This document shows positions 38,322-38,807 of a stretch of DNA of 64,000 bases, piece after piece. Made by a program: the position numbers and the translations under genes. The DNA is from Escherichia coli (GTDB lineage: Bacteria; Pseudomonadota; Gammaproteobacteria; Enterobacterales; Enterobacteriaceae), in the NCBI RefSeq assembly GCF_009931435.1, contig NZ_CP043414.1; one strand, written 5' to 3'. The notes under the pieces are model-generated. The model had not been told where the DNA came from. It did no database searches and saw only the letters and a list, made by a program, of their open reading frames with translations. The stretch's first letter is position 1, and each line of letters opens with the position of its first letter.

Positions 38322-38807
38322 TTATCTTCCTGTAGTGGCTCGCTCCATTGCACCGCGATCTTCAAATCTGCGGATTACTTCCAGCAGTTGCATCGGCTCA
38401 ATATCCTGAATCTCAAGACCGCCGATGATGGGTAAAATGTCGTCATCAAACATTTTGGCAAGTTCAGTTGCATAGCCTACTGACCAGACTTGCTTCTTGT
38501 GCTCGTACCATTCCTTGTAAATCGCACTAAATGAATTGTTGTTAGACGAAGCCTTTTTCGCCTTTACCGGATCGATGCCAACCGAGATGTCTTTCCTCGC
38601 AGTCCATGCCTTATCCCTTGCCTCCTGCAAAGTCATAAGCGGATATTTTCCGACAGTCAGGATTTTCTCCTTACCGTCAATCTTGTAGCGAAGCTGCCAT
38701 ACCTATTTCCCGGATACAGGGACATAAAGGTACAGGCCATTACCATCGAGAAGGCGGTATGGTTTTTCTTTCGGCTTAGCTGCTTCAATCTGCTTAACGG
38801 TGAGCAT
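38322..38807 (-). pseudogene. intS: Tyrosine integrase (IntS-like), N-terminal fragment with internal stop and 3' truncation
   Basis: Minus strand from ATG (plus 38805-38807): MLTVKQIEAAKPKEKPYRLLDGNGLYLYVPVSGK-TAG-VWQLRYKIDGKEKILTVGKYPLMTLQEARDKAW...IRRFEDRGAMERA then a premature stop; catalytic domain absent; adjacent to the argW 3' end. Confidence 0.7.

What the first reader, a model, noticed from the sequence alone, without database searches (positions are those of the whole stretch)
38322..38807. Integrase at argW is doubly inactivated
The IntS-like reading frame has a TAG after codon 34 (...PVSGK*) and then ends at ~codon 140 with no catalytic RHRY domain downstream. The rest of the integrase has been deleted and replaced by unrelated sequence, so the element cannot excise on its own.
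Basis: seen in the sequence. Interest (0 to 1): 0.3.

Follow-up and report, generated by a model that had tools for sequence, protein, structure and literature searches.

The report
Dead integrase stub of a deleted prophage
The gene fragment next to the argW tRNA is the broken first 40% of a phage integrase, left when about 43 kb of a lambda-like prophage was deleted and later hit by a stop codon; this is an ordinary, already annotated kind of prophage decay.

Summary
On the minus strand, an intS reading frame starts at ATG 38807. It has TAG as codon 35 (38705..38703; AAG in K-12). It matches K-12 IntS exactly at residues 1-157, apart from that stop. The frame ends at TAA 38324..38322, which is codon 162, not about 140. 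The catalytic domain (Pfam residues 199-365) is absent from the whole window.

"Replaced by unrelated sequence" is the wrong description. The locus is a 3,678-bp remnant of a roughly 46-kb lambda-like prophage at argW. An intact counterpart exists in E. coli Rb-50, and 42,809 bp of it are missing here. The deletion joins intS nucleotide 472 to the last 289 nt of an early-region phage gene (DUF550/DUF551). At the joint is a 5-9 nt scar, (GCCA)CTACA, which is the terminal inverted repeat of an IS3-family element. That element is still intact at the same nucleotide in another strain.

Two strains share the joint but keep AAG, so the deletion came first and the TAG later. Both 16-nt att cores, torI, and a LysR regulator plus PACE efflux pump cargo remain intact.

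Self-excision is therefore lost. This is inferred, not shown. Excision by an integrase supplied in trans is not excluded. NCBI's PGAP pipeline already annotates this pseudogene in RefSeq. Interest is low.

The parts
38969..39043 (-). argW, tRNA-Arg(CCT), intact; its 3' end carries the attachment core
   Evidence: ARAGORN; identical to K-12 argW in the alignment
38968..38983 (-). attL core CTGCAGGGGACACCAT (16 nt; the repeat extends to 21 nt, CTGCAGGGGACACCATTTATC)
   Evidence: Exact repeat search; same 16-nt core as published for KplE1 (PMC2951348)
38808..38967 (-). attL arm region holding the intS promoter (-35 TTGACA at 38873..38868, TAAAAA -10-like box in 38852..38843); 38880..38808 is identical to K-12
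   Evidence: Alignment; motif coordinates; promoter description in PMC2951348. A different promoter-like match lies at 38857..38830
38336..38807 (-). intS' pseudogene: the first 472 nt (residues 1-157) of the 385-aa IntS integrase
   Evidence: blastn to K-12, 96.4%; tblastn E = 3e-101; Pfam domains; PGAP annotates the same locus in NZ_CP027579 as 'internal stop; missing C-terminus'
38703..38705 (-). Nonsense codon 35, TAG (AAG in K-12, Rb-50, R32_14_1F and RMDEC465; TAG in the window and 2013C-4282)
38331..38339 (-). Deletion joint GCCACTACA. GCCA (38339..38336) is shared by intS and the IS end (microhomology). CTACA (38335..38331) is found only in the IS terminal inverted repeat (..CCACTACA)
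   Evidence: Sequence comparison of window, K-12 intS, the VCSW7 gene and H34, whose 1,249-bp IS3-family element ends at the identical nucleotide
38322..38324 (-). TAA that closes the fused frame (codon 162), inside the foreign gene fragment
38042..38330 (-). 3' 289 nt of a lambdoid early-left gene (dATP/dGTP pyrophosphohydrolase DUF550 + DUF551, EaA-like), N-terminus missing. The window has its own CAG->TAG change at 38140..38138
   Evidence: Pfam PF04447/PF04448; the full 636-nt gene in VCSW7 and a 645-nt gene in Rb-50; differences listed
36948..37832 (+). LysR-family regulator, intact (294 aa), phage cargo
   Evidence: Pfam HTH_1 + LysR_substrate; one amino-acid difference from Rb-50
36386..36844 (-). 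PACE-family (AceI-like) efflux transporter, intact (152 aa), phage cargo
   Evidence: Pfam PF05232, E = 2.8e-44; identical to the Rb-50 protein
35704..36243 (-). Two small lambdoid genes (55 aa at 36076..36243; 114 aa at 35704..36048), homologous to ORF55 and ORF114 of phages 434 and HK022
35379..35579 (-). torI, the excisionase (recombination directionality factor), intact and 100% identical in protein to K-12 TorI
35290..35305 (-). attR core CTGCAGGGGACACCAT, the second copy of the 16-nt core; right end of the 3,678-bp remnant

Best explanation
Window 38322..38807 is a dead integrase stub, and a recombinase function cannot be recovered from it. The stub is the left end of a 3,678-bp remnant of a lambda-like prophage that used the KplE1/CPS-53-type recombination module at argW: intS at attL and torI at attR. 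The inferred history has four steps. (1) A prophage of roughly 46 kb integrated at argW. (2) An IS3-family element of 1,249 bp inserted into an early-left gene (DUF550/551) near the attR end. (3) One deletion of about 43 kb joined intS nucleotide 472 to a point 9 nt from the IS end, across a 4-nt microhomology (GCCA). It removed the integrase core-binding and catalytic parts, all structural, lysis, replication and immunity genes, and nearly all of the IS. (4) Later, in one sub-lineage that includes this window, codon 35 mutated from AAG to TAG. What remains is argW, attL with the intS promoter, intS', the 3' fragment of the early gene, the LysR and PACE cargo, two small lambdoid genes, torI and attR. 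Without the catalytic domain the remnant cannot catalyse its own excision, so it is fixed in the chromosome unless a matching IntS is supplied by another phage. Shown by sequence: the lesions, the joint, the parent-type prophage, and the order of deletion and TAG. Inferred: the IS-first order, the microhomology-mediated joining mechanism, and the loss of excision.
For: Lesions. No other IntS-like sequence occurs in the window. The window is collinear with core chromosome from glk to fabB, and no other integrase is annotated there in the collinear genome. Parent type: Rb-50 carries a complete lambda-like prophage between argW and dsdC, with an intact 385-aa intS. Its right end (ea22, DUF550/551, LysR, PACE, two small hypothetical genes of 55 and 114 aa, torI, attR) is 99.8% identical to window 35289..38330, while the flanking chromosome is only 95.3% identical. 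42,809 bp of that prophage are missing here. The same module lies just upstream of xis-int in a second lambdoid prophage, in VCSW7. The small genes match ORF55 and ORF114 of phages 434 and HK022. IS scar: in strain 24A16CRGN010 a 1,249-bp IS3-family element with inverted repeats TGTAGTGG... ends at exactly the nucleotide where the early-gene fragment begins in the window. The window keeps the last 5-9 nt of that inverted repeat. Order of events: R32_14_1F and RMDEC465 share the joint but have AAG at codon 35. Recency: 16 of 17 nucleotide differences from K-12 in the retained 472 nt are synonymous, and the 17th is the nonsense change. Requirement for IntS: KplE1 in vitro excision uses IntS + TorI + IHF, and the C-terminal domain of this type of integrase carries catalysis (PMC2951348). 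PGAP independently calls the same locus an intS pseudogene.
Against: The hypothetical ancestor with the IS inside an otherwise complete DUF550/551 gene was not found in 5,426 complete E. coli genomes, so the IS-first step rests on one informative strain. The IS-only part of the scar is just 5 nt. In that strain the argW side is occupied by a different island with a different integrase, so its history is not a simple intermediate. The retained intS part is no closer to Rb-50 than to K-12 (17 differences each), so Rb-50 is a parent type and not the actual parent. Loss of excision is not tested. The rest of the genome is not visible and could encode a compatible integrase.
Confidence: 0.88

Rival explanations
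1. Literal reading of the first stage: foreign DNA (the LysR/PACE block) inserted into or replaced the 3' part of intS, and the adjoining sequence has nothing to do with the integrase's own element.
For: The sequence beyond 38336 has no similarity to intS. The LysR-PACE pair is absent from K-12 CPS-53 and from all 50,697 phage records searched.
Against: In Rb-50 the same block, 99.8% identical, lies 43 kb from an intact intS inside one prophage bounded by the same att cores. In VCSW7 it lies in the normal lambdoid position upstream of xis-int. The block is continuous with torI and attR in the window. No insertion signature flanks it.
Confidence: 0.04
2. Simple illegitimate deletion with no IS involvement. 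CTACA would be random filler, and the match to the IS end in another strain would be coincidence.
For: Only 5 nt are unique to the IS end. The ancestral left IS junction was not found.
Against: The early-gene breakpoint coincides to the nucleotide with the IS end in 24A16CRGN010, on flanks 99.5% identical, and the filler equals the IS terminus. My rough estimate of chance is about 1/636 positions times 1/1024 for the 5 nt.
Confidence: 0.08
3. The stub is a functional truncated protein. An arm-binding N-terminal IntS fragment would repress the intS promoter or interfere with integrases of incoming argW phages.
For: The arm-binding domain (residues 2-86) is encoded in full in the joint-sharing strains without the TAG. 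IntS represses its own promoter by binding arm-type sites in attL (PMC2951348). The promoter region is identical to K-12.
Against: In this window TAG at codon 35 cuts the arm-binding domain. The next in-frame ATG, at residue 58, keeps only its last 29 residues. The TAG allele is the more frequently sampled one, on 186 contigs against 24, which argues against selection for the fragment.
Confidence: 0.03
4. Sequencing or assembly artefact: a false stop codon or a chimeric joint.
For: None found.
Against: The same TAG and joint occur in an independent complete genome, the joint alone in two more, and the exact ORFs on 186 and 24 public contigs.
Confidence: 0.01

Closest known systems
CPS-53 / KplE1 cryptic prophage of E. 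coli K-12 (argW-intS ... torI-attR)
   Same: Same integration site and the same 16-nt core duplicated at both ends. The intS 5' part is the same: 96.4% nucleotide identity, and residues 1-157 are identical except for the stop. The attL/promoter stretch 38880..38808 is identical. TorI is 100% identical (PMC2951348).
   Different: K-12 intS is intact (385 aa), and KplE1 can still be excised in vivo (PMC2951348). Here intS is truncated at residue 157 and carries a stop at codon 35. The interior also differs: K-12 has gtr-like yfdGHI and tail-fibre remnants over 10.2 kb, while this remnant has a DUF551 fragment, LysR, PACE and ORF55/114 over 3.7 kb.
Complete lambda-like prophage at argW in E. coli Rb-50 (NZ_AP025682, about 46.5 kb)
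   Same: The right-end module from the DUF550/551 gene to attR is 99.8% identical. The att cores and the intS/torI arrangement are the same.
   Different: Rb-50 retains the 42.8 kb missing here, including full-length intS. It has no IS scar. Its intS 5' part differs from the window at 17 of 472 nt.
RefSeq (PGAP) pseudogene C6996_RS00435 in E. coli 2013C-4282 (NZ_CP027579)
   Same: Same joint, same TAG and same neighbours. It is annotated 'prophage integrase IntS; internal stop; incomplete; missing C-terminus'.
   Different: The surrounding chromosome is only about 98-99% identical to the window. The extra CAG->TAG change in the DUF551 fragment is specific to the window.
Integrase pseudogenes of other cryptic prophages in E. 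coli K-12 (for example the fragments named intK and intG; recalled from memory, not checked here)
   Same: Same general phenomenon: a grounded prophage whose integrase is truncated.
   Different: Different integrases, sites and lesions. No comparison was run.

Membership tests
Tyrosine recombinase (phage integrase family; IntS of KplE1 type) | N-terminal arm-type DNA-binding domain (Pfam PF13356) | tested here: inconclusive
   The sequence is present (residues 2-86, E = 4.5e-25 when the stop is masked), but it is interrupted by TAG at codon 35, so it cannot be translated as one domain.
Tyrosine recombinase (phage integrase family; IntS of KplE1 type) | Complete central/core-binding domain (PF22022) | tested here: not met
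   Only profile positions 1-66 of 96 are present. K-12 IntS has 1-96.
Tyrosine recombinase (phage integrase family; IntS of KplE1 type) | C-terminal catalytic domain (PF00589) carrying the conserved Arg-His-Arg-Tyr residues | tested here: not met
   PF00589 matches K-12 IntS residues 199-365 and does not match the window fragment. tblastn finds no sequence for residues 162-385 anywhere in the window. Individual catalytic residues were not mapped.
Tyrosine recombinase (phage integrase family; IntS of KplE1 type) | Uninterrupted reading frame of about 385 codons | tested here: not met
   Stop at codon 35 and frame end at codon 162.
KplE1/CPS-53-type argW recombination module | 16-nt core CTGCAGGGGACACCAT duplicated at the argW 3' end (attL) and at the far end (attR) | tested here: met
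   Exact copies at 38983..38968 and 35305..35290; core sequence as given in PMC2951348.
KplE1/CPS-53-type argW recombination module | intS transcribed away from argW from a promoter lying inside attL | tested here: met
   Same orientation. The 73 nt upstream of the ATG are identical to K-12, including the TTGACA -35 box. Promoter activity was not tested.
KplE1/CPS-53-type argW recombination module | torI (the excision factor) next to attR | tested here: met
   The 66-aa product is identical to K-12 TorI, about 75 nt from the attR core.
KplE1/CPS-53-type argW recombination module | Functional integrase, so that the element can be excised | tested here: not met
   At sequence level, the catalytic domain is absent. 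The excision phenotype itself cannot be tested with these tools.
IS3-family insertion sequence | Complete element with TG...CA terminal inverted repeats and a two-ORF frameshifted transposase | tested here: not met
   The window holds only the terminal ..(GCCA)CTACA, 5-9 nt. The full 1,249-bp element with both inverted repeats (TGTAGTGG...) and a transposase is present at this position only in 24A16CRGN010.

The most novel reading that the evidence does not exclude
The remnant may be more than inert debris. It could be an integrase-less mini-element that is still mobilisable in trans. It keeps both att cores, the attL arm/promoter region identical to K-12, an intact torI, and an intact LysR-PACE efflux cargo. 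An IntS supplied by a superinfecting or co-resident phage with the same recombination module (HK620, Sf6, CUS-3 or Rb-50-type) could then excise or re-integrate it. Loss of IntS autorepression could also leave the intS promoter constitutively reading into the remnant. Alternatively, the deletion may have been favoured because it fixes the efflux cargo and TorI in the chromosome without the lethal phage genes.
Probability: 0.1. Interest if true: 0.4.

Novelty: already known. Interest (0 to 1): 0.13.

Why it matters
It matters little beyond correct annotation. The locus should be read as a grounded prophage scar, not as an active mobile element, and its intS as a pseudogene. Two modest points of value remain. 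First, the joint preserves a readable history: IS insertion, then a 43-kb deletion across 4 nt of microhomology, then a nonsense mutation. This is a clean example of stepwise prophage decay. Second, the decay has left a rare E. coli PACE-family biocide efflux gene with its LysR regulator fixed in the chromosome. That is relevant to anyone tracking how that gene spreads.

Tried and rejected
(1) I looked for the missing integrase C-terminus elsewhere in the window by tblastn at E <= 10 and found nothing.

(2) I looked for the ancestral state with the IS inside a complete DUF550/551 gene. I searched a synthetic 400-nt junction against 5,426 complete E. coli genomes, and no record covered both halves. 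The IS-first step therefore stays inferred from one strain.

(3) I examined strain 24A16CRGN010 as a possible intermediate. Its argW carries a different integrase and a roughly 39-kb IS-rich island, so it shares the IS site but is not a simple intermediate.

(4) I searched the phage collection for the LysR-PACE block. No phage record carries it, and only the ORF55/ORF114 part matches known lambdoid phages.

(5) I considered a functional truncated arm-binding protein and rejected it for this window because TAG 35 lies inside that domain.

(6) I considered a sequencing artefact and rejected it because independent assemblies agree.

(7) The simple promoter scan gave fewer promoter-like sites than shuffled sequence (5 against a mean of 7.0), so it adds nothing on its own. 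I did not obtain the published sequences of the IntS, TorI and IHF binding sites. Conservation of those individual sites was therefore judged only through identity to K-12.

Full report
**Observation**

The finding lies on the minus strand, directly downstream of tRNA-Arg(CCT) argW (38969..39043). From ATG 38807 the frame reads MLTVKQIEAAKPKEKPYRLLDGNGLYLYVPVSGK, then TAG at 38705..38703. It continues in the same frame to TAA at 38324..38322. The stated span of 486 nt is therefore exactly 162 codons.

tblastn of K-12 IntS (385 aa) aligns residues 1-161 to 38807..38325 at 97.5% identity, E = 3e-101. There is no second IntS-like match in the 64-kb window. The similarity is real.

blastn against K-12 shows that homology (96.4%) stops at window 38336, which is intS nucleotide 472 and residue 157. 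Four unrelated codons (TTGR) and a stop follow.

Pfam places Arm-DNA-bind_3 at residues 2-86, Phage_int_M at 93-188 and the catalytic Phage_integrase domain at 199-365 of K-12 IntS. The window fragment has the first domain (cut by the stop), 66 of 96 positions of the second, and none of the third.

**The two lesions**

Codon 35 is AAG in K-12, in Rb-50 and in two strains that share the truncation. It is TAG in the window and in strain 2013C-4282.

The retained 472 nt differ from K-12 at 17 positions. Sixteen are synonymous and the seventeenth is the nonsense change. The stub therefore encoded a perfectly conserved IntS N-terminus until recently and has had little time to decay.

**What the "unrelated sequence" is**

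Beyond the joint lies the last 289 nt (38330..38042) of a gene with DUF550 (dATP/dGTP pyrophosphohydrolase) and DUF551 domains. This is an EaA-like gene of the lambdoid early-left region. The complete gene is 636 nt in strain VCSW7 and 645 nt in Rb-50.

Downstream of that fragment come:
- a LysR regulator (36948..37832, + strand);
- a PACE-family efflux transporter (36386..36844);
- two small genes that match ORF55 and ORF114 of phages 434 and HK022;
- torI, 100% identical in protein to K-12;
- a second exact copy of the 16-nt KplE1 core CTGCAGGGGACACCAT at 35305..35290. The first copy is at 38983..38968 in argW (core as published in PMC2951348).

The element between the cores is 3,678 bp.

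**The parent type**

E. coli Rb-50 carries a complete lambda-like prophage of about 46.5 kb between argW and dsdC. It has an intact 385-aa intS at attL. At the other end it has ea22, DUF550/551, LysR, PACE, the 55-aa and 114-aa genes, torI and attR.

That right end is 99.8% identical to window 35289..38330, while the flanking chromosome is only 95.3% identical. Relative to Rb-50, 42,809 bp are missing from the window.

In VCSW7 the same module lies upstream of a different xis-int pair in another lambdoid prophage. This confirms that it is normal phage early-left and cargo DNA. The integrase was therefore not overwritten by foreign DNA. One internal deletion removed most of the prophage and brought its two ends together.

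**The joint**

The sequences compare as follows.
- Window: ...GGAGCGAGCCA CTACA GGAAGATAAATTG...
- K-12 intS: ...GGAACGAGCCA ACAAAGCACG...
- The intact early gene...GCTGCTAT GGAAGATAAATTG...

The five extra bases are explained by strain 24A16CRGN010. There, a 1,249-bp IS3-family element (inverted repeats TGTAGTGGTCAAC... and TGTAGTGGCACAC...) ends ...GTGTGCCACTACA at exactly the nucleotide where the gene fragment begins, on flanks 99.5% identical to the window.

The window thus keeps the last 5-9 nt of that IS. GCCA is common to intS and the IS end. I infer the following sequence of events. An IS insertion in the early gene came first. A deletion then ran from intS nucleotide 472 to 9 nt from the IS end, joined across 4 nt of microhomology.

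There are caveats. The IS-plus-intact-gene ancestor was not found in 5,426 complete genomes. The informative strain has since acquired a different island and integrase at argW.

**Order and spread**

Only 3 of 5,426 complete E. coli genomes carry the joint. R32_14_1F and RMDEC465 have the joint with AAG at codon 35. 2013C-4282 and the window have it with TAG. The deletion therefore preceded the nonsense mutation.

In the larger protein collection, the exact 104-aa ORF downstream of the TAG occurs on 186 contigs. The uninterrupted 161-aa versions occur on 21 and 3 contigs. The doubly hit allele is therefore a lineage marker and not unique to this genome.

The window adds two private changes in the DUF551 fragment: a CAG->TAG nonsense change at 38140 and one missense change. 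The cargo genes and torI stay intact.

**How it works now**

The stub has no recombinase function.

KplE1-type excision requires IntS, TorI and IHF acting on attL and attR. Integrases of this type carry catalysis in the C-terminal domain (PMC2951348; PMC3509656). With that domain gone, the remnant cannot catalyse its own excision. This is an inference from sequence plus published biochemistry, not a measurement.

The cis sites and torI are intact, and the module is shared by HK620, Sf6, CUS-3 and many argW prophages. Excision by an IntS supplied in trans is therefore not excluded.

IntS normally represses its own promoter, which lies in attL. [quoted passage not shown] The promoter region here is identical to K-12, so it may be derepressed. 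I did not test this.

**Comparison and novelty**

This is the K-12 CPS-53/KplE1 recombination module with a dead integrase and a different, much-reduced interior. PGAP already annotates the same locus in RefSeq as [quoted passage not shown].

Truncated integrases in grounded prophages are commonplace. I rate it as already known, with interest about 0.13. The readable IS scar and the retained PACE/LysR cargo are the only mildly notable aspects.

Noticed in passing
window 36386..37832: A PACE-family (AceI-like, Pfam PF05232) efflux transporter lies divergent from a LysR regulator, carried as cargo of the prophage remnant. The block is rare: 11 of 5,426 complete E. coli genomes hold at least 80% of window 35290..38330, and no record in the phage collection carries the LysR-PACE block. 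[quoted passage not shown] This is probably the same gene, but the accession was not matched.
   Followed up: partly
window 38138..38140: A second, window-specific nonsense change (CAG->TAG) lies in the DUF551 gene fragment, with a missense change at 38215. Three of the six differences from Rb-50 across the 3-kb module fall in this 289-nt pseudogene piece.
   Followed up: yes
window 41282..42481 (-): A 399-aa ORF between mlaA and fadL has no Pfam match. It sits in a 32-38% GC stretch, against about 50% around it. K-12 has yfdF at this position and Rb-50 has nothing, so this looks like a variable, horizontally acquired slot. Sources call it 'hypothetical protein' (one UniRef name says 'Transposase').
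   Followed up: partly
window about 29500..34855: The csc sucrose genes occupy the place of dsdC/dsdX next to attR: a LacI-family regulator (CscR in 24A16CRGN010), cscA, the kinase CscK and the transporter CscB. A small dsdX-like remnant lies beside dsdA, by collinearity with the annotation of NZ_CP027579. A second variable region therefore abuts the argW element.
   Followed up: no
window about 34856..35289: The gap between cscB and the attR core holds a short fragment annotated in related genomes as a 105-nt 'DUF4942 domain-containing protein' ORF. It may be debris of yet another element.
   Followed up: no
L006 7761..9009 and L011 (NZ_CM148325.1): In strain 24A16CRGN010 the argW site carries a different tyrosine recombinase (396 aa). 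It also carries a roughly 39-kb IS-rich island with TerB-like, helicase, HsdR-like and autotransporter fragments, upstream of the same DUF551-LysR-PACE-torI remnant. This shows serial occupation of argW by different elements.
   Followed up: partly
L007 11645..11977 (Rb-50 prophage): The intact Rb-50 prophage also carries an EmrE-type SMR efflux gene and a porin gene. The parent-type phage is thus loaded with several membrane-transport cargo genes.
   Followed up: no
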